In this document: positions 5,693 to 31,109 of the stretch, piece by piece
How the letters are laid out: every line of letters begins with the position of its first letter
How positions within the stretch are numbered: the first letter of the stretch is position 1
Source of the DNA: an uncultured virus (IMG/VR IMGVR_UViG_3300035698_018388)
Taxonomy: Duplodnaviria > Heunggongvirae > Uroviricota > Caudoviricetes
Virus record (IMG/VR): IMGVR_UViG_3300035698_018388
Strand: one strand, 5' to 3'
Length of the DNA: 35,526 nucleotides
The notes under the pieces: model-generated
What the model saw: only the letters and a program-made list of their open reading frames with translations
Told to the model about the DNA's origin: nothing
Database searches by the model: none
Position numbers and translations under genes: made by a program

Positions 5693-5730
5693 CAATTAGT
5701 TCATTATAGTTATTTATAAATAAGAAAGGC

Positions 5731-5770: not shown

Positions 5771-5810
5771 GGTTAATTTTCAGCCCCACTAAATTCTAAG
5801 GAGAATTAAG

Positions 5811-6551: not shown

Positions 6552-6554
6552 GGC

Positions 6555-7493: not shown

Positions 7494-7836
7494 AGAAACT
7501 AAAAAATTATTACTCGGCAATCTGAAAAATATTACTACCCCATATATGATTTTGATTATTCTTAGCTATCAGGCTGAAACCTTTTCAACCGCAGTAGACA
7601 TCCATAAGTTTTATGGCCGCTTGCCATTAAAGTTTTTTGAAAAGATATTATTAGGTGTTGCGCCAAAAGTAGATGCAATACCTTTCTTGAATTATATTAA
7701 GAGAAAAAAGGAAGACAATCTTATTCCAAAAATAATTGATCATTTGCATTGCTCAAAAGAACAGGCTATTGATTCTCTGGTGCTCCTGAAACTTGAAGGG
7801 ATAAATGTCAATAAAATGTTTGGAGATAAAAAATGA
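7480..7836 (+). CDS. Putative clamp loader small subunit (gp62-like)
   Basis: Size, position overlapping the loader ATPase, weak PYMI..ILS pattern. Confidence 0.55.
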   Translation: MSPFEETKKLLLGNLKNITTPYMILIILSYQAETFSTAVDIHKFYGRLPLKFFEKILLGVAPKVDAIPFLNYIKRKKEDNLIPKIIDHLHCSKEQAIDSLVLLKLEGINVNKMFGDKK

Positions 7837-8249
7837 CAATAAGCAAATTTACAAAAACCAAATCACACAATGAATCTATAATTGAGCGCTTTGAAAAGCT
7901 TATTAAAAATTCAAGTAAAAGGGAAATAAGAAAAATAGAAATGGCGTTGTTAAAGCCACAACCAATCAAAAGATATACTGGCAAACAACCGGGGATATCA
8001 AGCTTTCACAAAAAGACAATTGAATTTACTTTTAGTAGTGAAAAATATGTAGAACAAATAGAAAAGCTTATCCGTATCAATAAACATATTCGATTTAACA
8101 CCCATGACACTCACATTTTTGAAGAATTTCTGGATATGATTTCTGCTGAAAAATTAATTATTGAAAACGGAAAATTGATTATGGCCTCTAATTATATTTT
8201 GAAATCTGATGGAGGCAAGCAAACAAAAATTACAAGGAGAAAAAAATGA
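7833..8249 (+). CDS. Hypothetical protein with C-terminal KITRRKK
   Basis: ATGA-coupled on both sides. Confidence 0.7.
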   Translation: MTISKFTKTKSHNESIIERFEKLIKNSSKREIRKIEMALLKPQPIKRYTGKQPGISSFHKKTIEFTFSSEKYVEQIEKLIRINKHIRFNTHDTHIFEEFLDMISAEKLIIENGKLIMASNYILKSDGGKQTKITRRKK

Positions 8250-9658
8250 GCTTGCGTGATGAAATATTTGATGAAGGAAGACGTTTTGTTCTGGAAAACA
8301 AAGGATTAAAACTTGATGATAAAGGTAGACAATATCTAAGCCCAAGAATATCTTCTGAATTTATGGACTGTAGCATGCCGTTAACTTTTGATCAATACTC
8401 TCATTGTAGTCTTGGTTGCATTTACTGTTTTGCCTATTTCTTCAAGTCTTGCAACCAAACATTTTCAAGTAAACTACATACCGTAAATCATACGGCTTTA
8501 ATTGATACAATTCATGGGGAACCAAACTCGGCAAGAAATAAAATAATGTACGAACACTTTTTCAAAAAGAAGTTTTTGTTTCATTGGGGCGGAATGGCAG
8601 ATCCATTTTGTAACTTTGAAAAAAGCAATGGTATTGGATACCAGATTGTAAAGGCTCTTGCCGAAGAAAATTATCCTACATTGTTTTCATTTAAGGGAAG
8701 CGCAATTTTCAAACCCAACTTCCAAAACCTATTCGGCGATTATTCCAAACAAAAAAACTTTGCTTTTCAAGTCAGCATAATTGCACCGACAGACAAACAA
8801 AGCAAGGAAGTTGAAATTGGTGTTCCTGTTACTTCAAGAAGAATTGAAGCAATTAGAATGCTTTCTCAAATGGGTTATTATACCATCCTAAGATTGCGAC
8901 CCTATATAATCGGAATAACAAATGAAGGCATTGATGATCTTTTACATAAATGCCTTGAGGCCGGTATAAGGGCTGTCAGTATGGAATTCTTCGCAATGGA
9001 TGCAAGATCAAGTGTTGGTATGAGAAAAAGATATGAGTGGTTGTCAAAACTCATTGGTGTTAAAAGTTTACAAAAGTATTTTAGGGCTTTAAGCCCATCT
9101 GAACGAGGTGGCTATATGAGATTGAATCGCTTAGTTAAAGAAAAGTATGTCAAAACAGTCTACAAATTTTGCCAAGATAATAATCTTGTTTTCGCTTGTA
9201 GTGATCCTGATTTCAAAGAACTAAATACCTCTGGCAGTTGTTGTGGCATGCCAGATAAATATCCAGCAAATCCATTACTTGAAAATTGGACAAGAGGCCA
9301 AATGACATACATGATAAAAGAAGCAAGAAAAAAACACCACATGCATGGAACACAAGCAAAAATAAAATTTGATTCTGTTTACCATCCAAATACAGATACG
9401 TATTTGAATGAAGTCGAACTTGGTCAAGATCATGTTATGGTTTCTGACAGAACCCAAGCGCAAAGACAAGGAATAACATATTTAAAAATCGCAAAGGAAA
9501 TATGGAATAATCTTAGATCACCGTCAAACCCAAGAAATTACTTTCATGGAAAGGTAATGCCCATTACTATAGATGGGGATGGAAATTTTATTTATAAATA
9601 TATTGAAGATGAATATGAAGAAAAATGGAAATCAGAAGGATTAGATTTGACAAGATAA
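8246..9658 (+). CDS. Radical SAM enzyme (SplB/DNA-repair-like subgroup)
   Basis: CSLGCIYC; GGMADPF; EIGVP..SRRIEAIR.L; LRLRPYIIG; late CCG. Confidence 0.85.
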   Translation: MSLRDEIFDEGRRFVLENKGLKLDDKGRQYLSPRISSEFMDCSMPLTFDQYSHCSLGCIYCFAYFFKSCNQTFSSKLHTVNHTALIDTIHGEPNSARNKIMYEHFFKKKFLFHWGGMADPFCNFEKSNGIGYQIVKALAEENYPTLFSFKGSAIFKPNFQNLFGDYSKQKNFAFQVSIIAPTDKQSKEVEIGVPVTSRRIEAIRMLSQMGYYTILRLRPYIIGITNEGIDDLLHKCLEAGIRAVSMEFFAMDARSSVGMRKRYEWLSKLIGVKSLQKYFRALSPSERGGYMRLNRLVKEKYVKTVYKFCQDNNLVFACSDPDFKELNTSGSCCGMPDKYPANPLLENWTRGQMTYMIKEARKKHHMHGTQAKIKFDSVYHPNTDTYLNEVELGQDHVMVSDRTQAQRQGITYLKIAKEIWNNLRSPSNPRNYFHGKVMPITIDGDGNFIYKYIEDEYEEKWKSEGLDLTR

Positions 9659-9662
9659 GGGG

Positions 9663-10661
9663 ATGATAATGAAAAAACCGATAATGAGAAAACAGGTTCC
9701 ACCGTTTACAATAAAATTAGAACTTACAGAAGGGTGCAATTTACATTGTAAGTTTTGCGGGATTAGCAGCATACGAAAAAAACCCGGCAAATTTCGGTTT
9801 ATGACAATTGAAACTGCAAAAGAATTAATAAAACAAATCAAAGATGCTGGGTGGACACCGAAGATCGATTGTGCGATGCATGGTGAACCATTAATGAATA
9901 AAAATGCAACCGAAATATTCAGACTTTTTAGAGAAGCATTTCCAAAAATTTATATGTATGTTACAACAAATGGTGGAGCACTTCTGGCCGGTGATGTTAC
10001 AAAAAATATAGATGCCCTGCTTGAACATTTGAATATAATAGCTCTTGACGATTATAAATATGCAAAAATAGTTCCTAAAGTTTTGAAGGGATATACAGGC
10101 AAGCATAAAATATTTACATACCCAGATATAAAAATTTACAATCGTCAAAATTTTAAAATGAGGGCTTTACTTATCTTTCCAGATATAAGCCAGAACAAAA
10201 AAATCCGGGCAAGACGTTTTAATAATCAGGCCGGGGCTGCTGGCCCTGCTGACTTTTCGATTATGAAACAACGATGTGCCAAACCGTTCAGAGAAATTGC
10301 AATAAAACATGATGGGATGGTTGTCCTCTGCTGTAATGACTGGAGAAGATATTTTAGAATAGGAACAATTTTTGAAAGAAACATAACAAGTTTATGGAAT
10401 GATAAACATTTAATTGCGGCAAGAAGAGTTCTTTTTAATGATGGAAGAACATTCAGTATTTGTCATGGTTGTAATAGTGTTGCATACAGAACGGGTCTCC
10501 TACCAGATCTTACTGCAAAACATACAATGCTAAAACCATCACAACGATGTTATGATCTATTAAAAGATATGGAAAGCCGTGGTTCCGACATAGAAGTATA
10601 TATTCCTAAATTTAGAGACAATAAAATAAAAGGCATTACCCAATTTGCAAAGGAGAAATAA
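9663..10661 (+). CDS. Radical SAM enzyme with SPASM/Twitch-like domain
   Basis: CNLHCKFC, HGEPL, TNG; C-terminal CAKP...LCC...CHGC. Confidence 0.9.
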   Translation: MIMKKPIMRKQVPPFTIKLELTEGCNLHCKFCGISSIRKKPGKFRFMTIETAKELIKQIKDAGWTPKIDCAMHGEPLMNKNATEIFRLFREAFPKIYMYVTTNGGALLAGDVTKNIDALLEHLNIIALDDYKYAKIVPKVLKGYTGKHKIFTYPDIKIYNRQNFKMRALLIFPDISQNKKIRARRFNNQAGAAGPADFSIMKQRCAKPFREIAIKHDGMVVLCCNDWRRYFRIGTIFERNITSLWNDKHLIAARRVLFNDGRTFSICHGCNSVAYRTGLLPDLTAKHTMLKPSQRCYDLLKDMESRGSDIEVYIPKFRDNKIKGITQFAKEK

Positions 10662-10664
10662 CAG

Positions 10665-12047
10665 ATGAAAATTGCAATGATAATGTTCCCACTTGGAGGC
10701 CTTGGTGGTATCGTAAGTAACATTGAAAATCTTTGTTGGGGATTAAAAGAAATCGGTCATGACGTAAACCTTTTTCTTTTTTCTTGGCAAAATAAATTTA
10801 TGACCCCAAAATATAGCGACGATGATTTAATTGGAAAAAATGGGTGGTATCGTGGCTTTACCTGCGCAACACATCAAAGCAATGGTTGGAATCTTCCTTT
10901 AGACCGTAAGGTTGCATATAAAGGCAACAAAAATTTAAGACAAGCCAAACGGTTATTAAAGAAATTTGATCTTATTATTTGGCAAATCCCAGTCCCTACG
11001 CAACAAAAAAACAATAGGGGCAACACCGATTGGCCGGAGTTGTATAAAGTAAATCCAAATAATATATTATACAGTCACGATGCACACTTAATGGCAAGAT
11101 ATCCATATATTTATGAAGTAAAAGAAAATATTACCGGATTGGCCTGTGTCAATGTTTCCAGTTTTTTTGCAAGCCAGATTGGTGGAATAAGAAAAGCATT
11201 GACATTTAGCAGCCATGATATTTCAAAACTGAAACATCGATTCGATTATGACAAAAGGCAAAATGGTTTTTTAAGTTTGCAAACATTTAAGGGGTGGAAG
11301 CATGTTGAAGACTTAGTAAGGGCCATACCCCATATGGAAAAAGAAACAAGAAAAGTAATGGCAGGTGCGGGTAGAGAATATGCATATATGATCAGTAAAG
11401 ATAAATGTAAGCCAGAATATTTTTTGGATAAAAAATATGATCCAGACTTAAAAGATTTAAAATTCAAACAAGATACAAGAATTTGGGATTATGCCGGTGA
11501 ACATGGAATGGAATATTTCGGTTGGATAACGCCATCAGCAAGAAACATATTTTTAAAAAGAGTGAAATGTCTTATTGACCCAAGTTGGAATCTTAACTTT
11601 GCAAAACATGGCGGTCATTTTAATCGTGTATTTATAGACGCAATAAAAAATGGGGCAATACCAATTGGAAGAAATTTTGGCATAACCTCTAACAAAGAGG
11701 GGAATGGATACGTTTTTAAAGCCAATGAAAATTATATTATGATTCCACACGATGCGACACCAAAAGAATTTGCCGAAATTGTAGAAAGAACAAATAGATT
11801 GCCAAGAAAAGAATGGAAAAGAATTTTAAAAAATAATTATGAATTAATAAAACTTTTTGATCGTAAAGTTGTCGCACAACATTTTATTGATTTATCTAAA
11901 GGGAAACCTGCTGGTTTTTTCAAAGACAAGCATGCTTTTCTGAAACAAACACCGCATGCAGTAAAATTAAATTCGGCAAAACTTGCGAAATCCTTTTTTG
12001 GATTAACGCCAAAGAAATTTGAAACCGGATTAAAAAAGTTTATTTAA
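10665..12047 (+). CDS. GT-B fold (GT4-like) glycosyltransferase
   Basis: MKIAMI..PLGGLGGI..L..GL..IGHDV; WKHVEDLVRA; F..V.IDA...GAIPI. Confidence 0.8.
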   Translation: MKIAMIMFPLGGLGGIVSNIENLCWGLKEIGHDVNLFLFSWQNKFMTPKYSDDDLIGKNGWYRGFTCATHQSNGWNLPLDRKVAYKGNKNLRQAKRLLKKFDLIIWQIPVPTQQKNNRGNTDWPELYKVNPNNILYSHDAHLMARYPYIYEVKENITGLACVNVSSFFASQIGGIRKALTFSSHDISKLKHRFDYDKRQNGFLSLQTFKGWKHVEDLVRAIPHMEKETRKVMAGAGREYAYMISKDKCKPEYFLDKKYDPDLKDLKFKQDTRIWDYAGEHGMEYFGWITPSARNIFLKRVKCLIDPSWNLNFAKHGGHFNRVFIDAIKNGAIPIGRNFGITSNKEGNGYVFKANENYIMIPHDATPKEFAEIVERTNRLPRKEWKRILKNNYELIKLFDRKVVAQHFIDLSKGKPAGFFKDKHAFLKQTPHAVKLNSAKLAKSFFGLTPKKFETGLKKFI

Positions 12048-12061
12048 TGGCGGAGTAAATA

Positions 12062-12253
12062 ATGGCATTCGTTATTACGTGTCCCTATTGCAATCACAAG
12101 GAGACCATAAGAAATACAAAACATAGATGGGTATTTCTCCAAATTGGAAAAACAAAATGTGTCGATTGCCATAAAGAGATAAAAATAAATGATAGAACAT
12201 TGAAAACAATGCAAGTAATCGGAAGCGGTAAAATCACAAGGAGGAAAAAATGA
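12062..12253 (+). CDS. Small Zn-ribbon protein with C-terminal KITRRKK
   Basis: CPYC...CVDC; SD GGAG. Confidence 0.7.
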   Translation: MAFVITCPYCNHKETIRNTKHRWVFLQIGKTKCVDCHKEIKINDRTLKTMQVIGSGKITRRKK

Positions 12254-12681
12254 AAGAATCAGTTGAAACGAAAAACCGTTTATTTTTTGATCGTCATTTT
12301 TACTTGTATGCAAAAGGCTGGTACGAAAGAACAGATGTTTTGCAAGACTTAAAAAAAATTGTCGCTGACCGTTGTGGACGCGGAATTGAAGCTATTGGTT
12401 TTGGAAGTATCTTCTCTATTTTGATAAAGCTGGTTTATTCCCATATTGGAAACGAATATAGATTTATTGAATTTGTAGAAAATCTTCTCCCGGAACAAAG
12501 ATGGAAAGTAAAAACCTCCTTTAATAAAGAAAGCACCTTTGAAGAAATAATGTTGAATAATTGTCTTTCTGTATTATCAAGGCAAAAGGTAACAGATATT
12601 CCTTTTGCTCTTGGCGAGCCTGATTGGGACATATTGCCAAAACCAGCTTCAAAAAAAATTAAAGAAATGACCTTAAAATAA
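12250..12681 (+). CDS. Hypothetical protein
   Basis: ATGA-coupled, SD AGGAGG. Confidence 0.7.
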   Translation: MKESVETKNRLFFDRHFYLYAKGWYERTDVLQDLKKIVADRCGRGIEAIGFGSIFSILIKLVYSHIGNEYRFIEFVENLLPEQRWKVKTSFNKESTFEEIMLNNCLSVLSRQKVTDIPFALGEPDWDILPKPASKKIKEMTLK

Positions 12682-12697
12682 GAAGGAGTAAATAATA

Positions 12698-15600
12698 ATG
12701 TCATTCTGCCATTTACACGTTCATGATGAATACTCTCAACTTGATGGAATGGGAACGGCTAAGGAGTATGTTGCCGCAGCAAAAGAAAATGGCTTTAAAT
12801 ATCTTGGATTAACTAACCACGGAAACATAGATAGCTTAATAAAATTTCAAAGGGAATGCGAAGCCGGTGGCATTACTCCAGTTCTTGGTTGTGAAGCATA
12901 TATCGTTGACGACATTGCAAAAAAGAAAACAGAAAAGCGGCATCACATTTGTCTCTTTGTAAAAAATCAAAGAGGATGGAGAAATCTCACAACGTTAATG
13001 ACCTTTGCAAATATTGAAGGGTTTTACTACCGACCAATTATAGATTATGGAACACTCCTCAAGCATTGCGAAGGACTTGTTATATCAACAGCATGTGCAG
13101 GAACATTTTTGCACCACAAAAACGGTATAGACCTATTTGAAAAATTAAACAAAAAAATAGGAAGTGATTTATATCTTGAAGTAATGCCGCACGATATTAA
13201 AGTGCAATACCCAACAAATAAACTTGTTAAAAAACTATCCAAAAAATATGGCAACAAAATAATTGCAACAAACGATTGCCATTATGTTTTAAGGAGTGAT
13301 CATAAAGTTCAAGATGTACTCCTTGCAATACAAAGACAGGTTAAATGGAACGATCCCAAACGATTTAGTTTCGGATTCAAAGGATTGCATTTAAGAACCG
13401 AAAAGGAAATGATTAGAGCATTTAAGAAAATAGGAGAAGATGATTATCAAGAATGGTTGGACAACACGATTGAAGTTGCTAAAAAGTGTTCTGATTTCAA
13501 AATAAAGAAAAGAACCGTTAGATTGCCAGAACCAAAAATAAATAATGTTATTTTAGATACCAAAGGAAAAGAGTCTAATTTCTTATGGGCTCTTATCTAC
13601 AGCGGATATGAATATTTATTTGGTATTAAAAAGAATCTTAAAGAGAATAAAAAATATTATCGAAGGGCAAAACGAGAATTTGAACTCCTTCAGAAAAAAG
13701 GGTTTATTCATTATCTCTTAATTGTTTGGGAATTAATTGATTGGTGCGAAAAAAATAATATAATAATTGGACCGGGACGTGGTAGTGTTGGTGGTTCTTT
13801 AATTGCCTACTTAATTGGCATCACCCAAGTTGATCCAATTAAATATGGCCTTTATTTTGAAAGATTTGTATCTGAAGATCGAGTTGATTTGCCAGATATA
13901 GATATTGATTTTGATAGAGAAAAAAGATATTTGGTGGTAAAACATCTTGAAGAACTATATGGGGAGGATAACGTTTGTGCGGTTAGTTCTTTTAATCGAA
14001 TGAAAAGTAGAGCCGCAATTGGAGAAGTTGGAAAGGTATTTGGAGTTCCTGATTATGAATTAAAGGCATTCTCAAAATTAATTGATTACAAAGAAGAAGA
14101 CGCTCTTAAAACAGCATTAGATACCTATCCAGAAGGGCAAGCATTAAAAGACAATTATCCCTTTGTTGTTAAGGCAGCATTACGACTTGAAGGTCAAATT
14201 CGGAATTACGGAAAACACGCAGCCGCAATTGTCGTTTCTAAAAGGCCAATTGCAAAAGGCGGGCGTTGTAATCTTATAAGAAGAAATAAAACAACATTAA
14301 TAAATTGGGGAAAAGAAGATACAGAGTTTATGGGATTAATGAAATTTGATTTATTAAGTCTCAGTCTTCTTTCAATTTATGATGGAACAAAAAAAGCAAT
14401 AAAAGAAAATCACGGTATCGATATTGACTTCAAAAAAATACCACTTGATGATAAAAAAGTTTTGAAAAATATTAGTGATGGGAATAATGTTGGAGTATTT
14501 CAGATAGGCACATGGGCGACCAACAGTCTTATCCAAGAAATGCATGGTGTTCGTTGCTTTGACGATATTGCTGCCGCCATTGCGCTTGTTAGACCCGGTC
14601 CTATGCAATCTGGCATGACCGAACAGTACATTGAACGGAGACAAGTTGGCGAATGGGAACAGACCCATAAGATATACGATGAAATCACAGAAGAAACAAA
14701 TGGAGTACTTGTTTATCAGGAACAGGTGATGGCCGTTATAAGCAAGATGGCAGGACTTCCATATTCAACAGCAGATCAGATAAGAAAGATTATTGGAAAG
14801 AAAAGAGATCCCAAAGAATTTGAAACGTATAGAAAACAATTTCTGGATGGTTGTATAAAACAAAAAACATTTTCTAAAAAGGAAGCAAAAGAATTTTGGG
14901 AAGGATTATTAAAGTGGGCAAAATATGGTTTTGGAAAAGCCCATTCTATTGAATATGCTTTACTTGGATACTGGTGCGCTTTTCTAAAACTCTACTACCC
15001 ATTAGAGTTTATATGTGCAAATTTGACCTACGGTTCAGATGCAAAGAAAACAGAACTTGTCGAAGAAATATATGATCTTGGTTTAAAAATAGAATTGCCA
15101 AAAGTAGGAATAAGTGAAGCTGAAAAATGGGTTACTAAATCTGATAGAGTGTTTATTCCATTTGCTGAAATCAAAGGCGTCGGCCCGGTATTGGCAAGAG
15201 AAGCAACAGCAGAAACGAATAGTAATGCTGGACTTAAAAGATTCTATAATCCAAAAGGGAAAAGCAAGATACAGCAGCATCCCGGAAAACTCGGGAAAAT
15301 ACTCCAGTTGATTGGTGCATATGGTTCTGACGAAATAGAAATAACAAAAGAGATTAGTGATTTATTCGATTTTAGAATTGAAGGCAATAATTCAAAGATA
15401 TATAAAAACTTATGGAAGGTTCTTATAAAAGGAGCAAAAAATAAAGGTTTGCCAATCGTTCGTGAAGAAGGTCTCGTAAACGAAAAGAATTTAAAGGAAT
15501 TAGTAACCGGAGATATTGAAAAGCTTCGTTTATTACAAGAATATAATGCCAAAATAATTAAAAGGAAATCTTTCAGGCCAAAGCGTGGAAGATTCTTAGA

Positions 15601-16192
15601 CGAATTAAAATCATGTAATGAATGCGAATTAAGAGAGGAGTGTACTTCTCCCGTTCCCCCAAGTTCTGGAAAACTTAATGTCATAATCGCTGGTGAAGCA
15701 CCGGGTAAAGATGAAGATGAAAAGGGAGTTTGCTTTGTTGGTCGTACCGGTAATGATATCCTATGGCCCGAACTTAAAAAGTATGGATTTGAACGATCAT
15801 CTTTTCATGTAACAAATATAGACAAATGCTTTCCAAAGAAAAGTAGAAAGCCGTCACCAAAGCAGATACAGATTTGTGCGAATAAATTCTTTAAAAAGGA
15901 AGTTAAACAAATAAGAGCAAAAATAATTTTAGCCTTTGGAAATACGAATTTATTTTTGTTTACTGGAAACAAAGGTGGCATTACAGATTGGAATGGAAAA
16001 ATAATGTGGAACGAAGAATATGCTGCATGGATTTTCTTTTGTTTGCATCCTGCATCAGTACTCCATAATCCAGATAACAAAATACCGTTTAAAAAATCAA
16101 TAAAACAATTTGCAAAATATGTTAATGAAATAAAAGAAGAGAAGCAATTAAAGACGACAAAGCATTTTGATGATGACGACATCCCATTTTAA
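12698..16192 (+). CDS. dnaE: DNA polymerase III alpha (family C) fused to C-terminal family-4 uracil-DNA glycosylase
   Basis: PHP HLHVH..YS.LDG, TNHG, TNDCHY; GRGS; PDIDID; KFDLL; RPGP; YQEQVM; YGFGKAHS; IKGVG. UDG domain (~15596-16140): CNEC, GEAPG, FVG, KCFP, HPAS. Confidence 0.95.
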   Translation: MSFCHLHVHDEYSQLDGMGTAKEYVAAAKENGFKYLGLTNHGNIDSLIKFQRECEAGGITPVLGCEAYIVDDIAKKKTEKRHHICLFVKNQRGWRNLTTLMTFANIEGFYYRPIIDYGTLLKHCEGLVISTACAGTFLHHKNGIDLFEKLNKKIGSDLYLEVMPHDIKVQYPTNKLVKKLSKKYGNKIIATNDCHYVLRSDHKVQDVLLAIQRQVKWNDPKRFSFGFKGLHLRTEKEMIRAFKKIGEDDYQEWLDNTIEVAKKCSDFKIKKRTVRLPEPKINNVILDTKGKESNFLWALIYSGYEYLFGIKKNLKENKKYYRRAKREFELLQKKGFIHYLLIVWELIDWCEKNNIIIGPGRGSVGGSLIAYLIGITQVDPIKYGLYFERFVSEDRVDLPDIDIDFDREKRYLVVKHLEELYGEDNVCAVSSFNRMKSRAAIGEVGKVFGVPDYELKAFSKLIDYKEEDALKTALDTYPEGQALKDNYPFVVKAALRLEGQIRNYGKHAAAIVVSKRPIAKGGRCNLIRRNKTTLINWGKEDTEFMGLMKFDLLSLSLLSIYDGTKKAIKENHGIDIDFKKIPLDDKKVLKNISDGNNVGVFQIGTWATNSLIQEMHGVRCFDDIAAAIALVRPGPMQSGMTEQYIERRQVGEWEQTHKIYDEITEETNGVLVYQEQVMAVISKMAGLPYSTADQIRKIIGKKRDPKEFETYRKQFLDGCIKQKTFSKKEAKEFWEGLLKWAKYGFGKAHSIEYALLGYWCAFLKLYYPLEFICANLTYGSDAKKTELVEEIYDLGLKIELPKVGISEAEKWVTKSDRVFIPFAEIKGVGPVLAREATAETNSNAGLKRFYNPKGKSKIQQHPGKLGKILQLIGAYGSDEIEITKEISDLFDFRIEGNNSKIYKNLWKVLIKGAKNKGLPIVREEGLVNEKNLKELVTGDIEKLRLLQEYNAKIIKRKSFRPKRGRFLDELKSCNECELREECTSPVPPSSGKLNVIIAGEAPGKDEDEKGVCFVGRTGNDILWPELKKYGFERSSFHVTNIDKCFPKKSRKPSPKQIQICANKFFKKEVKQIRAKIILAFGNTNLFLFTGNKGGITDWNGKIMWNEEYAAWIFFCLHPASVLHNPDNKIPFKKSIKQFAKYVNEIKEEKQLKTTKHFDDDDIPF

Positions 16193-16200
16193 GGATAATT

Positions 16201-16225
16201 AAAAATTTCAAAACCGTGTTATAAT
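16201..16225 (+). promoter_or_regulatory. Putative promoter, second copy of the 4430-4454 motif
   Basis: AAAAATttCAAAAccgtGTTATAAT, TATAAT at 16220-16225. Confidence 0.55.
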
Positions 16226-16243
16226 GTATATATGGAGGAAAAA

Positions 16244-16447
16244 ATTAAATTCTTTAAGAACCGTTCGAGGTGCTCCCATGTTGGTGCCAACCGGGTTCGA
16301 TCGTTTCCCTGCCGCTAATTTCATCATCGCCAAAGCGAAGCGGCCTTTTACCGGGATCAAAGTGTTCCGGTGCCAACCGGGTTCGGGAGAGAAGGAGCAT
16401 TCCCCATTTACCACCGACATGCTCGTGCGGTTCTTAAAGAATTTAAT
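16244..16447 (+). ncRNA. Candidate structured ncRNA or 5' leader
   Basis: Perfect 20-bp terminal inverted repeat, nested stems with G-U pairs, 17-nt direct repeat, potential pseudoknot; GC-rich island after a promoter motif. Confidence 0.6.
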
Positions 16448-16467
16448 AAAAGCCAAAAGGAGTCAAA

Positions 16468-16953
16468 ATGCAATATAGAGAAGACCTGAATATTAACAAA
16501 TTCAATTTGGACGAGGAGTTGATTCGGCAACCACAACATTTTTTAGATTGGGCTTTGGCTTGGAATAACGCAGCAGATCAAAGAGAAAAAGCAAAAAGCC
16601 GATTTGAATTAATCAAAGCAGAAACGGAATCTAACATAAGAAAGCATCCTGATGATTATGATATCCCTTCTGGTAAGGCAACAGAACCGGCAATCAAATC
16701 AGAAGTATTAAAACATAGTCGAGTTAGAAAGGCACAACGAAAATATTTAAAAGCATTGAAAAATGAACGGGTATTGGCAGATGTCAAAACGTCATTCAGA
16801 CAGAGAAAATCAATGCTTGAAAAATTAGTTGACCTGAACTTGCAAGTCCATTTTTCAGATCCGAAGATACCAACAACTCAAAAGGAATCTATTTATCAGC
16901 ACAGAAAAAGAAAAATAACTCGGAAACTAAGGAAGTCATTCGATGATCGCTAA
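16468..16953 (+). CDS. Coiled-coil protein, possible UvsY-like recombination mediator
   Basis: Helical, ends ..SFRQRKSML..L; lies upstream of SSB and RecA. Confidence 0.5.
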   Translation: MQYREDLNINKFNLDEELIRQPQHFLDWALAWNNAADQREKAKSRFELIKAETESNIRKHPDDYDIPSGKATEPAIKSEVLKHSRVRKAQRKYLKALKNERVLADVKTSFRQRKSMLEKLVDLNLQVHFSDPKIPTTQKESIYQHRKRKITRKLRKSFDDR

Positions 16954-17158
16954 CCTACTCATAGAAATAATAAAAGATATTTTTATTTATGCTTCAGCAT
17001 TGATTGTGCTACTTGTTTTGATTTATGTTGCCTCAAGACTTGTGGCTCTTGGTGTTGCAAAAAGTATAATTAAGGCAATAAATGATAACGCTGCTGAAAA
17101 GGCGGCAAAACAGGGAGGAAATGAAAATGGCAAGAGACAAGAGTCGGAGAAAATTTGA
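16943..17158 (+). CDS. Small membrane protein
   Basis: Hydrophobic IFIYASALIVLLVLIYVA. Confidence 0.6.
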   Translation: MIANLLIEIIKDIFIYASALIVLLVLIYVASRLVALGVAKSIIKAINDNAAEKAAKQGGNENGKRQESEKI

Positions 17159-18284
17159 TAGTAAGAAGTTAAAAGAAAGAACCAAAGAATCTCAAAAACG
17201 GGCGAAGGCCGGTGGCAAAAATATCTTAGATAACAGCAAGGATCTTCCGAAAATTGTTTTTCGAGAAGGCAAACATACCTTTGATATTATTCCTTACATT
17301 ACCGGAAAGAACGACAGCGAGCCTAACGAATGGGCCTACACTTTTGAATACTACATGCATCGAAATATCGGCACCGCAAAAATTCCTGTCATTTGTCCAC
17401 AAGCAACATTTGGGGAGCCTTGTCCCATATGCGAACATCAACAGAAACTAAGAGACAAAGGCGACGAATCGTATAAAGACTACTGGCCAAAAAGAAGAAA
17501 CCTTTATAATATCATTTGCTATGACCGGGGAGAACAAGAAAAGGGAATCCAACTTCTGGATGTAAGTTGGCATTATATGGAAAAGTATTTAGCAACAATT
17601 TCAGAAAAAACAAACCGGAAAACCGGAAAACTGGAAACTATCAGTTTTGCCGATACCGACAAAAGAAAAGGCCGCTCTATTGAATTTACATTAGAAGCCG
17701 CAAAATCTGAAAATGACTACCCTGATTGGCGTGGACATAACTTTGATCGACGAGATTATGATATTAAAGACAGTATTCTTGAAAAAGCACTTGTCCTTGA
17801 TAAATGTGTTGTCCTTATGAGTTATGATGAACTGGAAGAACTTCATTTTAATGGGCCGAAGGGTAAAAATAATTCAGACGATGATGACAAACCAGAATCC
17901 GTTTCCGACGATCTTGATGATCTGAAAGACGACCTTGAAGACATTGATGATTTTAAAGATCTGAAGGAGTTCATAAAGAATAATGATCTTGACATCAAAG
18001 TCAAAAAGGCAGATTGGAAAGATGACGAAGACGATGCAAAAGATGAAGTCCGGGTTGTCCTTGAAAAGAAATTTGATGGAAATGCTGCCGACGACGATGA
18101 TGATGATGATGATGACAAAAAAGATAAACATACTGAAAAAGAAATTGAAAAAATGTCATTTAAGAAATTAAAGAAACTTATCAAAGATGAAGATCTTGAT
18201 ATTGATATGGACGATTATGAAAAAGACGATGACGATGATCTTGAAGACCTTCGGGAAGAAGTAGTTGACAAACTGGATCTGTAA
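17127..18284 (+). CDS. gp32-like single-stranded DNA-binding protein with acidic repeat tail
   Basis: YYMH, CPQATFGEPCPICE Zn motif, PKRRNLYNI, very acidic C-terminus; SD GGAGG at 17114-17118 favours ATG 17127. Confidence 0.75.
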   Translation: MARDKSRRKFDSKKLKERTKESQKRAKAGGKNILDNSKDLPKIVFREGKHTFDIIPYITGKNDSEPNEWAYTFEYYMHRNIGTAKIPVICPQATFGEPCPICEHQQKLRDKGDESYKDYWPKRRNLYNIICYDRGEQEKGIQLLDVSWHYMEKYLATISEKTNRKTGKLETISFADTDKRKGRSIEFTLEAAKSENDYPDWRGHNFDRRDYDIKDSILEKALVLDKCVVLMSYDELEELHFNGPKGKNNSDDDDKPESVSDDLDDLKDDLEDIDDFKDLKEFIKNNDLDIKVKKADWKDDEDDAKDEVRVVLEKKFDGNAADDDDDDDDDKKDKHTEKEIEKMSFKKLKKLIKDEDLDIDMDDYEKDDDDDLEDLREEVVDKLDL

Positions 18285-18289
18285 AGACT

Positions 18290-18365
18290 TGGGGCGAGCC
18301 GAGGTATCCACTTGTGGATAAGTGGTGGGTTGCGGCGGGGAACATGGTAGGCTCGCCCCATTTTT
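18290..18365 (+). other. Intergenic stem-loop (terminator, processing site or regulatory element)
   Basis: 11-bp stem 18290-18300 / 18350-18360 followed by T5; inner TATCCAC-TT-GTGGATA palindrome. Confidence 0.6.
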
Positions 18366-18379
18366 AAAAAGGAGTAATA

Positions 18380-19480
18380 ATGGCAATATCAAGAAGAAAT
18401 AAAACGGAAAAACTTGTTTCTGAAATCAAACGGGAAATTAAAGAACCAATAAAAGAAAGCCCTGTTGAATTCTTAGGCTCTGGTGGAACACACTTAAATC
18501 TTGCCCTCTCAGGCACTTCAGGCGGCGGTTGGGGTCGTGGGAGAATTCATAATATAGTTGGTGACGGTTCAAGTGGAAAGACCGCTCTGGCTCTTGAGGA
18601 GGCTTTCTGGTTTTATAAATATATTAAAGAAATACGATCAAGAATATTCCCAAGAGTAAAGTCTTTTGAAATCTGTTATGATAACGGTGAAGGAGTAATG
18701 GATTTTCCTGTTTCGGATATGTATGGCACAGAATTTTACAAGGCAATAAATTGGGATCGAAGTCCTCACTTTGAAGCAATGTGCCGCAGGTATTATAGGA
18801 AAACAAGAAAGTTAAAGAAGGGGCAAGCCCTCTTATATATAATTGACTCTTGGGATTCATTCAAATCTGCAAAAAGCATGGATCTGTTTTTGGAAAGTGT
18901 TGAAAGCGATACGGAGTTAAAGGGCGATTATGATATGGCCCTACAAAAATATGCAAGCGGTAAATTCTTTCCAAACGTCTGCAACATACTTGAAGACAAT
19001 GGTGCGGATTCAACTCTTTGCATTATCTCGCAGGTCAGGAGCAAAATAAATGCTCTGTTTGGAAAGAAACAATATCGTGCCGGTGGTAAAGCTCTTGATT
19101 TTTATACACATCAGGTAGCATGGCTTCGTGAAATTGAAAAAATGAGAAAGAAGAAATTTGGTGAAATGAAAGTTTATGGTATTAGATCAGAGGTCGCAGT
19201 TGATAGAAATAAACTTGCCAAACCATTCAGGGTCGGCCGGTTTACAATCCTTTATGATTATGGTCTTGACGATACTTCTTCAATTCTTGATTATGTTTAT
19301 GGTCCTAAAAAAAGTAAGTTCAATTTTAGAGGAGTAAAATTTAAAGATAAATTATCCTTTGTAAAACATATTGAACGGAACAAATTACAACCGCAATTAA
19401 TTAAAAAAGCCCAACGGAAATGGGACAAGGTTGAAGATGCCTTTACAGAGGAAATAAATGAAAGACCAAAAAGATACTAA
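18380..19480 (+). CDS. recA: RecA/UvsX-like recombinase
   Basis: LNLALSG, GRI, Walker A GDGSSGKT, IIDSWD, ISQVR, GGKALDFY, NK.AKPF. Confidence 0.9.
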   Translation: MAISRRNKTEKLVSEIKREIKEPIKESPVEFLGSGGTHLNLALSGTSGGGWGRGRIHNIVGDGSSGKTALALEEAFWFYKYIKEIRSRIFPRVKSFEICYDNGEGVMDFPVSDMYGTEFYKAINWDRSPHFEAMCRRYYRKTRKLKKGQALLYIIDSWDSFKSAKSMDLFLESVESDTELKGDYDMALQKYASGKFFPNVCNILEDNGADSTLCIISQVRSKINALFGKKQYRAGGKALDFYTHQVAWLREIEKMRKKKFGEMKVYGIRSEVAVDRNKLAKPFRVGRFTILYDYGLDDTSSILDYVYGPKKSKFNFRGVKFKDKLSFVKHIERNKLQPQLIKKAQRKWDKVEDAFTEEINERPKRY

Positions 19481-20339
19481 ATATTTGTTAATTGACTGCC
19501 ATGCCATTGCCTATGCTGCAATGTTTACAACCGGATCGTTTTCACATGACGGCAAAGGAACAGGAGTAATCTTTGGTTTTTTAAGAAAGATATTGTCGCT
19601 GGCAAAAAAAATGAATACAAATAAATTTATCTTCTGTTGGGATTCAGATCCTTGGATAAGATCAAATGATTATCCAGAATATAAAAGTAATCGCAAGAAC
19701 AAAGAGAAAACAATGAAGCCAAAGGACTATACGCATTTTCTTGAAATGGTAGCTCAAAGAGAAATCTTGAAAAAAGAAATACTTCCAAACATGGGATTTA
19801 AAAATATTCATATTGTTGACGGATTTGAATCTGATGATATTATCGGATACTTTGCAACAAAATTAAAAGATGATGCGATCATCGTTTCTGCAGATAATGA
19901 TTTTTATCAATTGCTTTATGACTGTTCTATGTATCATTTATACAGAAAAAAGATTTATACATATGTTGATTTTATAAAAGAGTATAATATTGAACCGGAT
20001 AAATGGGCAATGGCAAAGGCTATAGGTGGTTGCAATGGTGATGGAGTTAAGGGAATCAAAGGTGTTTCCGATCCAAAAGATCCGAAGTCAAAAGCCCTTG
20101 CATATATTAGAGGGGAATTAACTTCAGGAAAAGTATTTGAACGAATCAAAAGTAGTCCGCATTTAATCGAATTATTTTATTCATTAGTTAAACTGCCACA
20201 TGAAGACTTTGATAAACAGCTAATTTTAAGACGAGATAAAATAACAAAAAAGAAGATGCTGAATATCTTTTTTAAATACGAATTCAAATCGTTTCTTGAA
20301 ACCAAAAATCTTTCCGAATGGATTAAAATTTTTACATAA
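19458..20339 (+). CDS. 5'-3' exonuclease / flap endonuclease (PolI N-terminal, T4 RNase H family)
   Basis: LLID, CWD, YPEYKSNR, ESDDII, SADNDF.QL, D.VKGIKGV. Confidence 0.9.
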   Translation: MKDQKDTKYLLIDCHAIAYAAMFTTGSFSHDGKGTGVIFGFLRKILSLAKKMNTNKFIFCWDSDPWIRSNDYPEYKSNRKNKEKTMKPKDYTHFLEMVAQREILKKEILPNMGFKNIHIVDGFESDDIIGYFATKLKDDAIIVSADNDFYQLLYDCSMYHLYRKKIYTYVDFIKEYNIEPDKWAMAKAIGGCNGDGVKGIKGVSDPKDPKSKALAYIRGELTSGKVFERIKSSPHLIELFYSLVKLPHEDFDKQLILRRDKITKKKMLNIFFKYEFKSFLETKNLSEWIKIFT

Positions 20340-20350
20340 AGGAGAACTTA

Positions 20351-20560
20351 ATGGGCATTGAAAAAGAAATTCATAAACTTGAAAAAATTATTGATCCTGA
20401 TGTACGATTGGATTCAATGCGTTTTGATTGCGGCAATAATACCGCAGGAATACGAGTTAGAAAAGTAATGCAAACAATAAGAAAGCAAGCGGAGAATATT
20501 CGCAATCTTATTATATACGAACGGGAAAGAAGAAAGATAAGTCGAAGGAGAAAAAAATGA
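20351..20560 (+). CDS. Small basic protein resembling histone H1-like Hc1 family
   Basis: GNNTAGIRVRK resembles the Hc1 GNKAA..R.R motif. Confidence 0.55.
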   Translation: MGIEKEIHKLEKIIDPDVRLDSMRFDCGNNTAGIRVRKVMQTIRKQAENIRNLIIYERERRKISRRRKK

Positions 20561-21030
20561 AAATACTCGCAATTGATCAGGCAACTAAAACCGGATATGC
20601 TCACAACTGTTTTAAAAAAATAAATTCAGGGGTTGCCGATTTTAAACCGAGGCGTGGTGATTCTCCCGGAATGAGGTTTATTAATTTTAAAGCATGGTTA
20701 TCTGAACTTGTAAAAAGTACAAAGCCAGAACTTATTATATATGAGCAGGAGCATCACCGTGGAGGCGCACCAACAGCTATTGCTCTTGGTCTTATTGCAA
20801 TGATTAGTGTTGTTGCGACTGAAAATAATTGCGATATTACTTCGGCCCATACTGGCAAGGTTAAAAAGTGGGCAACCGGAAACGGAAGGGCGTCAAAGGA
20901 AGAAATGGTAGCAGCAGCAAAAAAACTTGGATTTAAACCAGAAGATGATAATGAAGCAGATGCTCTTTTAATTTTACTCTGGTATCTTGATCAATTCAAA
21001 CCCATTAAAATAACGAGGCGGAAGAAATGA
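20557..21030 (+). CDS. ruvC: RuvC-like Holliday junction resolvase
   Basis: ILAIDQ..KTG, IIYE, VKKWATGNGRASKEEM, DDNEADA. Confidence 0.85.
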   Translation: MKILAIDQATKTGYAHNCFKKINSGVADFKPRRGDSPGMRFINFKAWLSELVKSTKPELIIYEQEHHRGGAPTAIALGLIAMISVVATENNCDITSAHTGKVKKWATGNGRASKEEMVAAAKKLGFKPEDDNEADALLILLWYLDQFKPIKITRRKK

Positions 21031-21260
21031 GACAATTTGAAAATACAATTTTTATGGGAGCCGGCCAATCTACAGAAAGCGAATGCTATAAATTAATATG
21101 TAGATTACAAGAAGGTCTTAAAATTTTAGGTGGATTGCAACAACCTGATCATCCCGATTCAATAAATGAAGAAATAAAATGCAAACAATGGAGGAGAATG
21201 GCAGGTATAGAACTTGAAGATATTAAAAAAGACATTTGTTGCGCTTTGGGTAAAAAATGA
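21027..21260 (+). CDS. Hypothetical protein
   Basis: ATGA-coupled on both sides. Confidence 0.55.
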   Translation: MRQFENTIFMGAGQSTESECYKLICRLQEGLKILGGLQQPDHPDSINEEIKCKQWRRMAGIELEDIKKDICCALGKK

Positions 21261-21523
21261 AGTTAATCTTTTACCCTAAAACAAAACGAGAAGCCCGTAA
21301 ACATCGTTATCACATACATCGGTGGAATACTAATGGTTGTGTATATGACCGCAAACGATGTGCCTGTGAAGTCGAATACGCAATGTGTGAGGAGATAATT
21401 AAAAACCAATGTCTCCACCAAAACGGCTTTGGCTATAAAGAACTATATTGTAAAGCACATCAGCATGGAATTCAAATAACCAGAAGGAAAAAGAAATCAA
21501 AAATCACAAGGAGGAAGAAATGA
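21257..21523 (+). CDS. Cys/His-rich hypothetical protein with tandem ITRRKK tail
   Basis: ATGA-coupled; ends QITRRKKKSKITRRKK. Confidence 0.65.
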   Translation: MKLIFYPKTKREARKHRYHIHRWNTNGCVYDRKRCACEVEYAMCEEIIKNQCLHQNGFGYKELYCKAHQHGIQITRRKKKSKITRRKK

Positions 21524-21792
21524 AACTTAAAGATTTTGACGCACCCAAAGCAAAAAGTTTAGATGACTTATTAGAACCGTTTTTAAAAGAAGAAAACTTT
21601 GAAGTTGTTTGTAGCTCTTGTGGGAAAATACATAATGCAACAAGAGAAACCTTCTATACCGTTTATGGCAATATATGTGTCGGTCTTAAAGGAGGAGTTG
21701 TCGGTAATAATTTTAAAGACAACGGGATTCTTGGACGACTATCTTTCTTTTGTCGAAACAATCCAGAATGCAAAAGGATGAAATTCAAATGA
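21520..21792 (+). CDS. Hypothetical Zn-finger-like protein
   Basis: CSSC...C..C; SD AGGAGG. Confidence 0.65.
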   Translation: MKLKDFDAPKAKSLDDLLEPFLKEENFEVVCSSCGKIHNATRETFYTVYGNICVGLKGGVVGNNFKDNGILGRLSFFCRNNPECKRMKFK

Positions 21793-31105: not shown

Positions 31106-31109
31106 AATC

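What the first reader, a model, noticed from the sequence alone, without database searches (positions are those of the whole stretch)
7833..21523. Recurring K-I-[TS]-R-R-K-K peptide on many unrelated proteins: candidate targeting or docking signal
Seen: five unrelated ORFs end in this peptide: 8226-8246 (KITRRKK), 12230-12250 (KITRRKK), 20534-20557 (KISRRRKK), RuvC 21007-21027 (KITRRKK), and 21473-21520 (tandem QITRRKKKSKITRRKK). Variants occur internally in the initiator (KITRRNKK, 1962-1985), at the RecA N-terminus (MAISRRNK) and near the end of the UvsY-like protein (KITRK, 16912-16926). Codons vary synonymously (Ile ATT/ATC/ATA; Thr ACA/ACG/ACC; Arg AGG/AGA/CGG), pointing to protein-level selection. 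Caveat: RRKK* overlaps the next gene's SD and ATGA, which can generate RRKK by itself, but does not explain K-I-T or the non-terminal copies. Inference: a portable short linear motif that recruits cargo to a shared hub (e.g. the acidic repeats of SSB and the 4529 protein, a replication compartment, capsid or protease), with one DNA cassette doubling as translational coupler.
Basis: partly seen in the sequence, partly recalled or inferred. Interest (0 to 1): 0.85.

Follow-up and report, generated by a model that had tools for sequence, protein, structure and literature searches.

The report
Shared basic peptide on phage replication proteins
An uncultured phage puts the same short, positively charged peptide (Lys-Ile-Thr-Arg-Arg-Lys-Lys) on at least eight otherwise unrelated DNA-handling proteins, and where it ends a protein its codons also act as the ribosome-binding site of the next gene.

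Summary
Five proteins end in K-I-[TS]-R-R-(R)-K-K. Non-terminal copies sit in the initiator, in UvsX (N-terminus), in the UvsY-like protein and in the 88-aa protein.

- **R-R-K-K-stop is generic.** It follows from AGGAGGAARAAATGA, a Shine-Dalgarno site plus ATGA overlap. In other viral contigs, 29 of 29 open frames ending on that DNA read RRKK, and 0 of 29 have K-I-[TS] before it.
- **The rest is selected as peptide.** There are 8 copies against about 0.03 expected. Synonymous sites are scrambled (pS 0.91, pN 0.12).
- **Relatives keep it without any ribosome site.** The initiator family, UvsX, the UvsY-like protein and the nearest RuvC relatives all carry it.
- **Position 3 shifts by lineage.** It is T/S in this phage and K/R in its relatives.
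- **Terminal copies are double-coded.** Arg is AGG in 7 of 11 codons against 15% genome-wide.

My reading is a portable basic arm. Its target is unresolved: DNA (slightly favoured) or the acidic repeat modules of the gp32-like SSB and the 4529 protein. The one complex prediction gave no answer.

Earlier notes of this scan describe similar double-coded C-terminal tags in other phages. I did not check them.

The parts
1962..1985 (+). Internal copy K-I-T-R-R-N-K-K in the linker of the replication initiator (gene 1467-2666). No start codon or SD follows it.
   Evidence: Conserved as I-[TK]-R-R in L005 and in distant family members.
7833..8249 (+). 138-aa ORFan after the clamp-loader genes, ending in K-I-T-R-R-K-K-stop (8226-8249). 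The ATG of the next gene (8246-9658) lies inside AAAATGA.
   Evidence: No family found. The L006 ortholog lacks the tail.
12062..12253 (+). 63-aa zinc-ribbon-like protein ending in G-S-G-K-I-T-R-R-K-K-stop (12230-12253). The next gene starts at 12250.
16912..16926 (+). K-I-T-R-K near the C-terminus of the UvsY-like protein (16468-16953).
   Evidence: L005 has G-K-I-T-R-K and L006 has K-L-R-R-R-R in their C-terminal tails; the L005 copy lies some 11 alignment columns downstream of the window's.
18383..18403 (+). A-I-S-R-R-N-K, residues 2-8 of the UvsX/RecA-like recombinase (18380-19480).
   Evidence: L005 has M-K-I-K-R-R-S-K and L006 has R-K-L-K-K-R-K at the same place.
20351..20560 (+). 69-aa Hc1 (histone H1-like) protein ending in K-I-S-R-R-R-K-K-stop (20534-20560). 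RuvC starts at 20557.
   Evidence: Pfam Hc1 at E 7e-9.
20557..21030 (+). RuvC-like resolvase ending in K-P-I-K-I-T-R-R-K-K-stop (21007-21030). The next gene starts at 21027.
   Evidence: The tail occurs only in the nearest relatives.
21257..21523 (+). 88-aa ORFan with two tandem copies: Q-I-T-R-R-K-K (21473-21493) and K-I-T-R-R-K-K-stop (21500-21523). The next gene starts at 21520.
   Evidence: No family found.
17865..18284 (+). Acidic C-terminal region of the gp32-like SSB (gene 17082-18284, about residues 262-400) with two acidic helical modules. Candidate docking partner, not shown to bind.
4529..5692 (+). 387-aa protein with three copies of the same acidic module and a predicted C-terminal winged-helix domain. 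Candidate docking partner, not shown to bind.

Best explanation
K-I-[TS]-R-R-(x)-K-K is a short basic arm selected as a peptide. This phage lineage hangs it on the free ends or linkers of its DNA-transaction proteins: initiator, UvsX, UvsY-like, RuvC, an Hc1-like histone, a zinc-ribbon protein and two ORFans. In the related phage G002 it also sits on the small terminase.

I think it most likely anchors these proteins to DNA itself. That would resemble AT-hook or SPKK-type arms and the basic tails of histone-like proteins, which are also used singly or in tandem.

Where the arm ends a protein, the phage writes the two Arg codons as AGG AGG or AGG AGA and the Lys codons as AAA AAA, directly before TGA. 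The same 15-18 bases then serve as the Shine-Dalgarno site and the ATGA start of the next gene.

**Shown:** recurrence beyond chance, peptide-level conservation, independence from the ribosome site at non-terminal copies, and SD-favouring codon choice at terminal copies.

**Inferred:** that the arm binds anything, and that the target is DNA rather than an acidic protein.
For: 1. **Recurrence.** 8 copies against 0.034 expected; 0 of 2000 local shuffles reach 8. The related phage G002 has 10 copies of I[KRTS]RR[KRNSH] against a mean of 0.99; 0 of 1000 shuffles reach 10.
2. **Not a ribosome-site by-product.** In IMG/VR, 29 of 118 sampled AGGAGGAARAAATGA sites close an open frame of 50 or more codons. 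All 29 read RRKK-stop and 0 of 29 have K-I-[TS] before it. The back-translated KITR[RS]KK+TGA pattern hits only 13 single places in all of IMG/VR. Twelve are in frames open for 23 codons or fewer, and the one real ORF reads KITRSKK.
3. **Peptide, not DNA.** Over the 28 pairs of the 8 copies, pS is 0.91 and pN is 0.12. The four exact KITRRKK-stop copies differ only at positions 6, 9, 13, 15 and 18, all synonymous (chance 0.006). No similarity extends into the flanks.
4. **Copies without any ribosome-site role are conserved in relatives.**
   - Initiator family: I-[TK]-R-R lies shortly upstream of the W-N-x-x-G-x-P-F domain in 6 of 14 inspected members, at 27-37% identity.
   - UvsX N-terminus: AISRRNK, KIKRRSK, KLKKRK.
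   - UvsY-like: KITRK, GKITRK, KLRRRR.
   - RuvC tail: KIKRRKK and KIKRREK in the 70% and 68% relatives, and absent in 116 of the 120 listed homologs.
5. **Double coding.** Arg is AGG in 7 of 11 codons of terminal copies and 1 of 6 in non-terminal ones, against 15% genome-wide (p = 3e-4).
6. **For DNA as the target.**
   - Every carrier of known family acts on DNA.
   - In G002 the arm precedes the small-terminase DNA-binding region.
   - Tandem double and triple copies occur in tails of small Zn-finger or ORFan proteins.
   - No copy occurs in the sugar and nucleotide enzymes at 26-35.5 kb.
Against: - No binding of any kind was tested, so the target is inferred.
- The copies were picked by a peptide pattern. 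The low pN is therefore partly built in, and only the high pS and the recurrence are independent.
- A generic DNA-binding arm need not be identical on five proteins.
- It also need not switch position 3 in concert between lineages. T/S appears in 9 of 9 copies here, and K/R in 11 of 13 in G002 (Fisher p = 2e-4; the copies are not independent). That pattern fits a co-evolving protein partner better.
- The tail is not kept in every ortholog. The L006 ortholog of the 138-aa protein ends GRKIHL, and the L005 Hc1-like protein lacks it.
- Six of the 14 inspected initiator-family members have no such motif, and 2 have only loose variants.
- The motif lacks the defining cores of the AT-hook (R-G-R-P) and of SPKK (Pro). 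Those two motifs are recalled from memory.
Confidence: 0.4

Rival explanations
1. Docking signal for an acidic protein hub. The basic heptapeptide would bind the acidic helical repeat modules shared by the C-terminal region of the gp32-like SSB and by the 4529 protein. That would recruit recombination and replication proteins to SSB-coated DNA or to a replication compartment. It is the reverse polarity of the acidic SSB tails that dock on basic pockets in T4, T7 and E. coli.
For: - The acidic modules are real and shared. SSB residues 277-399 match the L006 ortholog of the 4529 protein twice. There are three modules in the 4529 protein and two in the SSB. They are modelled as helical units at pLDDT 70-85.
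- Carriers include UvsX and UvsY-like. Their T4 counterparts bind the acidic domain of gp32; this is established knowledge, and I saw only the abstracts of PMC12424635 and PMC5892887 in the listing.
- The lineage-wide switch of position 3 (T/S here, K/R in G002, P0002 and P0003) is what co-evolution with one partner predicts.
- The relative L021 has neither the motif (0 hits in 29 genes) nor the acidic SSB modules. That is a single case.
Against: - No binding evidence exists.
- The G002 small terminase and the histone-like and Zn-finger carriers are not expected SSB clients.
- L006/G003 has the acidic modules but few copies, and those are altered.
- Initiator-family members from other phages keep the motif, and it is unknown whether those phages have such modules.
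Confidence: 0.3
2. RNA-level element. The 24-base junction would be an operator or enhancer on the mRNA, for example for a RegA-like translational repressor of replication genes. The peptide would be a passenger.
For: - All five terminal copies sit exactly on the translation-initiation regions of downstream replication or recombination genes.
- The 138-aa ORFan sits where T4 has regA, after the clamp-loader genes. The T4 gene order is recalled from memory.
Against: - The variable bases are exactly the synonymous ones.
- Four copies have no downstream start: initiator, UvsX N-terminus, UvsY-like and the first copy in the 88-aa protein.
- Their orthologs keep the peptide with different codons.
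- Intergenic ribosome sites in the window lack AAAATHACN upstream, apart from a loose AAAATAAGAAGGAG at 12698.
- No RegA family hit in 33 proteins and no Rfam family in the window.
Confidence: 0.08
3. Pure by-product. A strong SD plus ATGA forces R-R-K-K, A-rich codons upstream give K, I and T, and the tails have no function as peptide.
For: - RRKK-stop arises from this DNA in many unrelated viral contigs (29 open frames among 118 sampled sites).
- All motif codons start with A.
- AGG enrichment shows that the ribosome site is under selection.
Against: - 0 of 29 external RRKK-stop tails have K-I-[TS].
- With RR..KK held fixed, 5 of 5 was never reached in 20,000 shuffles.
- Non-terminal copies exist, and they are conserved in orthologs and in the initiator family.
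Confidence: 0.07
4. A DNA junction cassette spread by recombination or gene conversion (a module-boundary sequence). The peptide identity would simply reflect recent common descent of the DNA.
For: - The related phage has its own version: AACGAAAAAT[TA]A[AG]AAGGAGAAG[AG]AAATGA at two junctions on non-orthologous proteins.
- The tandem copy in the 88-aa protein looks like a local duplication.
Against: - Synonymous sites among the copies are saturated (pS 0.91).
- No flanking similarity.
- The orthologous N-terminal and internal copies cannot be junction cassettes.
Confidence: 0.04

Closest known systems
Translational coupling at ATGA overlaps with the Shine-Dalgarno site inside the last codons of the upstream gene
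   Same: All five terminal copies are AGGAGG-type SD, then 5 A/G bases, then ATGA. Arg codon choice is biased toward the SD-forming AGG. RRKK-stop is produced the same way in many other viral contigs.
   Different: The three residues before R-R, and the four copies with no downstream gene, are not explained by it. Coupling itself was not measured.
Short linear motifs shared by many replisome proteins (beta-clamp-binding QL[SD]LF and PIP box; the acidic SSB C-terminal tip D-D-D-I-P-F; T4 gp32 and T7 gp2.5 acidic tails). Motif definitions are recalled from memory.
   Same: A 6-8 residue peptide at N-termini, C-termini or linkers of many unrelated DNA replication and recombination proteins. It is conserved as peptide and varies by lineage.
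   Different: It is basic, with no aromatic or Gln anchor. No partner is identified. Here the carriers are the basic side, whereas in the SSB systems the hub carries the acidic tail.
Minor-groove or backbone-binding basic arms (AT-hook R-G-R-P, SPKK repeats of histone H1, N-terminal arms of HTH proteins). Recalled from memory.
   Same: Short Arg/Lys motif, used singly or in tandem on DNA-binding proteins, including a histone H1-like protein and a small terminase, in an AT-rich (35% GC) genome.
   Different: It lacks the Gly-Arg-Pro or Ser-Pro cores and has a conserved Ile. DNA binding is untested.
Double-coded C-terminal tags noted earlier by this scan in other phages (e1-1994549, e1-5402055, e1-5835845, e1-5380369, e1-350517, e1-141159, e1-5844427). 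These are unchecked AI notes.
   Same: A shared C-terminal peptide on unrelated phage proteins, whose codons also form the next gene's ribosome-binding site.
   Different: Here the peptide is strongly basic. It sits on core replication and recombination enzymes of known family, and it also occurs at N-terminal and internal sites conserved in orthologs.

Membership tests
Translationally coupled ATGA junction with intragenic SD | Stop codon of the upstream gene overlaps the start codon of the downstream gene (ATGA) | tested here: met
   5 of 5 terminal copies.
Translationally coupled ATGA junction with intragenic SD | Purine-rich SD 5-9 bases upstream of the ATG, inside the upstream ORF, with codon choice favouring it | tested here: met
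   AGGAGG, AGGAGA or GAGGCGG followed by 5 bases to the ATG. AGG in 7 of 11 Arg codons against 15% genome-wide, p = 3e-4.
Translationally coupled ATGA junction with intragenic SD | Downstream translation depends on upstream translation | not testable with these tools
   Needs reporter assays.
Short linear (docking) motif | Recurs on unrelated proteins more often than composition predicts | tested here: met
   8 observed against 0.034 expected; 0 of 2000 shuffles reach 8. G002: 10 against 0.99; 0 of 1000.
Short linear (docking) motif | Conserved as peptide in orthologs while the surrounding linker or tail diverges | tested here: met
   Initiator family 6 of 14 inspected, UvsX, UvsY-like, RuvC nearest clade 4 of 120 listed. 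Not kept in the L006 138-aa ortholog or in the L005 Hc1-like protein.
Short linear (docking) motif | A defined binding partner | tested here: inconclusive
   No partner identified; the single complex prediction returned no answer.
Clamp-binding motif / PIP box | Conserved Gln plus hydrophobic and aromatic anchor residues (definition recalled) | tested here: not met
   The motif has one Ile, no aromatic residue and no conserved Gln.
AT-hook | Arg-Gly-Arg-Pro core (definition recalled) | tested here: not met
   No Gly or Pro in any of the 8 copies.
RegA-type translational operator | Nucleotide-level conservation at initiation regions, together with a RegA-family repressor | tested here: not met
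   Synonymous positions vary. Four copies are not at initiation regions. No RegA family among 33 proteins scanned. No Rfam hit.

The most novel reading that the evidence does not exclude
The heptapeptide is an address label. A lineage-specific basic tag would recruit at least eight replication, recombination and chromatin-like proteins to a multivalent acidic scaffold. That scaffold would be the repeat modules of the gp32-like SSB plus the 4529 protein, which also has a winged-helix DNA anchor, and together they would build a phage replication compartment. Tag and scaffold would co-evolve (T/S at position 3 here, K/R in the sister lineages), and the phage would economise by using the tag's codons as ribosome-binding sites.
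Probability: 0.25. Interest if true: 0.8.

Novelty: new variant of a known kind. Interest (0 to 1): 0.55.

Why it matters
Shared short motifs are how cellular replisomes organise traffic around the clamp and SSB. Few such codes are known for phages, and none that I could find is basic.
- The exact strings KITRRKK, KITRR and KIKRRKK gave no relevant paper.
- Two broader literature searches returned only general SSB-tail and gene-overlap papers.

If the peptide is a real address or DNA-anchoring arm, it gives a seven-residue handle. That handle could be used to find new replication-associated proteins among phage ORFans; here that means the 138-aa, 63-aa and 88-aa proteins.

It is also a clean example of one stretch of DNA being selected both as protein and as ribosome-binding site. 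If it is only a DNA-binding tail, it is a tidy but modest case.

Tried and rejected
- **Complex prediction.** SSB residues 255-400 against RuvC, each given as an alignment, scored 0.00 with the verdict 'no answer'. This is no evidence either way.
- **Closer genomes.**
  - megablast of 7800-22000 against the phage collection: no match.
  - The window's own assembly is not held; only an identical 6-kb fragment is.
  - The contig of the 70% RuvC relative P0002 is not in IMG/VR.
  - The metagenome scan with DnaE gave only 44-46% relatives and then about 30-37%.
- **Protein searches.** The word-based search found nothing for the 138-aa protein and only a 99% copy of the initiator.
- **ESM Atlas.** No usable hit for the 138-aa and 88-aa proteins.
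- **Fold search of the 4529 model against the PDB.** Nothing at E 0.001 or better. Only weak winged-helix matches to the C-terminal domain, and none to the acidic modules.
- **Public runs.** 9 runs hold the stretch and no RNA holder is listed. In contigs of 4 runs laid on 1900-21600, the listed differences all fall at 14719-14876 inside DnaE. None falls at a motif copy, so there is no population-level test of synonymous against non-synonymous change.
- **Rfam.** No family in the window.
- **Pairing to 16S rRNA.** I considered extended pairing of AAAATCAC with the 16S 3' end and rejected it. The recalled anti-SD tail would pair with AGAAAGGAGG, not CACAAGGAGG. The host is unknown, so this is weak.
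- **Clamp-binding or PIP motif.** Rejected: no aromatic anchor.


Full report
**Setting.** The window is one strand-uniform block of an AT-rich (about 35% GC) phage genome. Family scans give a T4-style replication and recombination module:
- primase;
- an initiator of the RepL / O-like kind (1467-2666);
- DnaB-like helicase;
- an acidic 387-aa protein (4529-5692);
- a probable clamp and a gp44-like clamp loader;
- a radical-SAM enzyme and a glycosyltransferase-like protein;
- a DnaE-type polymerase fused to a UDG domain (12698-16192);
- a UvsY-like protein and a gp32-like SSB (17082-18284);
- UvsX (18380-19480) and a 5'-3' exonuclease;
- an Hc1 histone-like protein and RuvC;
- SbcCD-like proteins, followed by sugar and nucleotide enzymes at 26-35.5 kb.

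No close phage is in the annotated collection. The window's own assembly is not held. Relatives found are two complete phage records with terminal repeats:
- G002, which contains L005: 65.6 kb, DnaE 58% identical.
- G003, which contains L006: 81.4 kb, DnaE 50% identical.
- A more distant contig, L021, at 44%.

All 7 strict matches of [KQ]I[TS]RR[KNR]K lie in the coding frame of a + strand gene. With the UvsX copy (AISRRNK) there are 8 copies of [KQA]I[TS]RR[KRN] in 48 proteins. Shuffling residues within 12-residue blocks gives a mean of 0.034, and 0 of 2000 shuffles reach 8.

**What the ribosome-binding site explains.**
- Each terminal copy reads AAR ATH ACN/AGT (CGA) AGG AGR/CGG AAR AAA TGA, and the ATG of the next gene lies inside ATGA.
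- Sixteen junctions in my gene list have a four-base overlap, and five carry the motif. The others place the SD in another frame or have a weaker one, giving endings such as MEAI, DGVEE, KKEA and GDKK.
- As an outside null I scanned IMG/VR for AGGAGGAARAAATGA. Of these, 29 close a frame open for 50 or more codons, and all 29 read RRKK-stop. So R-R-K-K-stop is a generic product of this arrangement.
- The three residues before it are diverse in those 29, and 0 of 29 are K-I-[TS].
- The full back-translated KITR[RS]KK+TGA pattern occurs at only 13 single places in all of IMG/VR. Twelve lie in frames open for 23 codons or fewer, that is, at intergenic ribosome sites. The one in a real ORF reads KITRSKK.
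- Four exact copies within 14 kb here are therefore peculiar to this genome.

**Peptide or DNA?**
- The copies share nothing beyond the 24 bases.
- Over the 28 pairs of the 8 copies, synonymous sites are essentially randomised (pS 0.91) while non-synonymous sites are not (pN 0.12).
- The four exact KITRRKK-stop copies differ only at positions 6, 9, 13, 15 and 18, all synonymous. The chance of that placement is 0.006.
- Because I selected the copies by peptide, the low pN is partly circular. The high pS is not, and it rules out a recently spread DNA cassette.
- Codon choice shows the second layer. AGG makes up 15% of Arg codons genome-wide, 7 of 11 in terminal copies (p = 3e-4), and 1 of 6 in non-terminal copies.

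**Conservation where no ribosome site is involved.**
- *Initiator.* L005 has IIKRRKKEP where the window has KITRRNKKP, inside an otherwise poorly conserved linker.
  - A profile search of 1.84 billion representatives gave 1849 hits at E 0.001 or better, with 150 listed. I inspected 14.
  - Six have I-[TK]-R-R shortly upstream of the conserved W-N-x-x-G-x-P-F-x-K domain: the window, L005, P0126 (VITRRK), P0127 (EIKRRK), P0128 (IITRRA) and P0129 (SGKITRRKN). They are 27-37% identical to the window protein.
  - One has GKIKRRV further upstream, one has VLQRRN, and six have nothing similar; one of those starts after the site.
  - P0126 and P0127 gave no family hit in PHROGs or Pfam and have only about 50-60 residues before the motif. 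If they lack the N-terminal winged helix, the motif travels with the C-terminal domain.
- *UvsX residues 2-8.* AISRRNK here, KIKRRSK in L005 and KLKKRK in L006. The L005 codons are different (AAA ATA AAA AGG CGC AGC AAG).
- *UvsY-like C-terminus.* KRKITRK here, KGKITRK in L005 and KRKLRRRR in L006.
- *RuvC.* 682 homologs at E 1e-10 or better. Of the 120 listed, only four carry such a tail: the window's own protein, P0002 (70% identical...KSKKIKRRKK), P0003 (68%...KPRKIKRREK) and the L005 protein. In L005, KRTIRRRKN again overlies the SD and start of the next gene, but the protein runs on for about 17 more residues. The other 116 end right after the last core helix.
- *Not conserved.* The L006 ortholog of the 138-aa protein ends ...GRKIHL, and the L005 Hc1-like protein has no such tail.

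**A lineage-wide shift.**
- G002 has its own set of copies:
  - KIKRRRK-stop and KIRRRRK-stop on two proteins that are not orthologs of the window's carriers;
  - a triple tail (KIKRRHK...KITRRNK...KIKRRK-stop) on a Cys-rich 152-aa protein;
  - EIKRRKK on an 84-aa protein;
  - MRKIKRRK at the N-terminus of the small terminase (phrog_4102);
  - the UvsX, initiator and RuvC copies.
- That is 10 matches of I[KRTS]RR[KRNSH] in 87 ORFs against a mean of 0.99 after local shuffling; 0 of 1000 shuffles reach 10.
- Position 3 is T or S in 9 of 9 copies here, and K or R in 11 of 13 in G002 (Fisher p = 2e-4). The copies within a genome are not independent.
- At orthologous sites the shift is seen in three of four proteins: initiator, UvsX and RuvC, but not UvsY-like.
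- G003 has a few Leu-containing variants. L021 has none in 29 genes.

**What it does.**
- Shown so far: a basic heptapeptide is maintained by selection on the protein, on DNA-transaction proteins only. There is no copy in the enzymes at 26-35.5 kb. At C-termini it is also written so as to serve as the next gene's ribosome site.
- Inferred: its job. I slightly favour a direct DNA-binding arm (0.4). Every carrier of known family binds DNA, including a histone H1-like protein and, in G002, the small terminase. Tandem copies on small proteins recall AT-hook and SPKK usage (recalled from memory). The motif does not meet either definition.
  - The SSB C-terminal region and the 4529 protein share an acidic, roughly 60-residue helical module: two and three copies in the window, and also present in L005 and L006.
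  - L021 lacks both the modules and the motif.
  - The concerted position-3 shift is easier to explain by co-evolution with one protein than by DNA binding.
- I could not separate the two. The single complex prediction returned no answer.

**Rejected readings.**
- A pure SD by-product.
- A recombination cassette.
- An RNA operator. Synonymous variation, non-initiation copies, no RegA-like family and no Rfam hit all argue against it.

**Comparison and novelty.** The double coding is the ordinary mechanism of translational coupling. The recurrent peptide is of the kind of shared short motifs on replisome proteins, but it is basic, without an identified partner, and restricted to one lineage.
- Literature searches for the exact strings found nothing relevant.
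- Two broader searches returned only general SSB-tail and gene-overlap papers, of which I saw listings and abstracts.
- Earlier notes of this scan describe comparable double-coded C-terminal tags in other phages. I did not check them. They suggest the general phenomenon is common in phages.
- This case stands out by sitting on core enzymes and by its conserved N-terminal and internal copies.
- I rate it a new variant of a known kind, with interest 0.55.

Noticed in passing
window 12698-16192 (tail at about 16169-16189): The DnaE-type polymerase carries a C-terminal uracil-DNA-glycosylase-superfamily domain (Pfam UDG, E 3.5e-21). It ends in D-D-D-D-I-P-F, like the tip of bacterial SSB (recalled from memory). 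The L005 ortholog ends DYKDIPF and the L006 ortholog does not.
   Followed up: partly
window 4529-5692 and 17865-18284: The gp32-like SSB tail and the 387-aa protein share a repeated acidic helical module of about 60 residues, with the recurring core F-K-E-I-K-x-F-C-K-x-N-D-L. The 387-aa protein is modelled with a C-terminal winged-helix-like domain. No family or solved fold matched the modules.
   Followed up: partly
window 8235-8249 and 20546-20560: Two junctions read A AAA AAA TGA, a run of seven A's directly before the stop, with an SD just upstream. The downstream gene is in the -1 frame, so slippage would fuse the two proteins (138-aa with 470-aa; Hc1-like with RuvC). This is only a sequence observation.
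   Followed up: no
window 9663-12047 and 29849-35525: A radical-SAM/SPASM enzyme and a glycosyltransferase-like protein sit inside the replication module. Further on come an aminotransferase, a NUDIX hydrolase, a nucleotide-sugar epimerase and an acetyltransferase. Together they could be a DNA or nucleotide-sugar modification pathway.
   Followed up: no
L223:18072-18167 and L224:2087-2182 (G002 18072-18167 and 22087-22182): Two short ORFs of 31 codons end in the same D-G-K-R-S-T-I-T-N-N-I-R-R-R-K-stop followed by ATGA. This is a repeated element or mini-gene in the related phage.
   Followed up: no
window 17082-17130: The SSB start is probably the third Met (M-A-R-D-K-S-R-R-K-F, about 17127), because the L005 ortholog starts M-A-K-R-D-K-K-S-K-R-R-F. 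The basic N-terminal segment K-S-R-R-K-F is itself motif-like and recalls the basic N-terminal domain of T4 gp32 (recalled from memory).
   Followed up: no
window 12144-12253 and 7822-8552: Contigs of public runs show 'go-back' joints ending exactly at the stop of the 63-aa gene: 12253 to 12144 with 7 extra letters, in runs X1 and X3. A second joint runs 8552 to 7822, in X1 and X2. They could be duplications in variants or mis-laid contigs of relatives.
   Followed up: no
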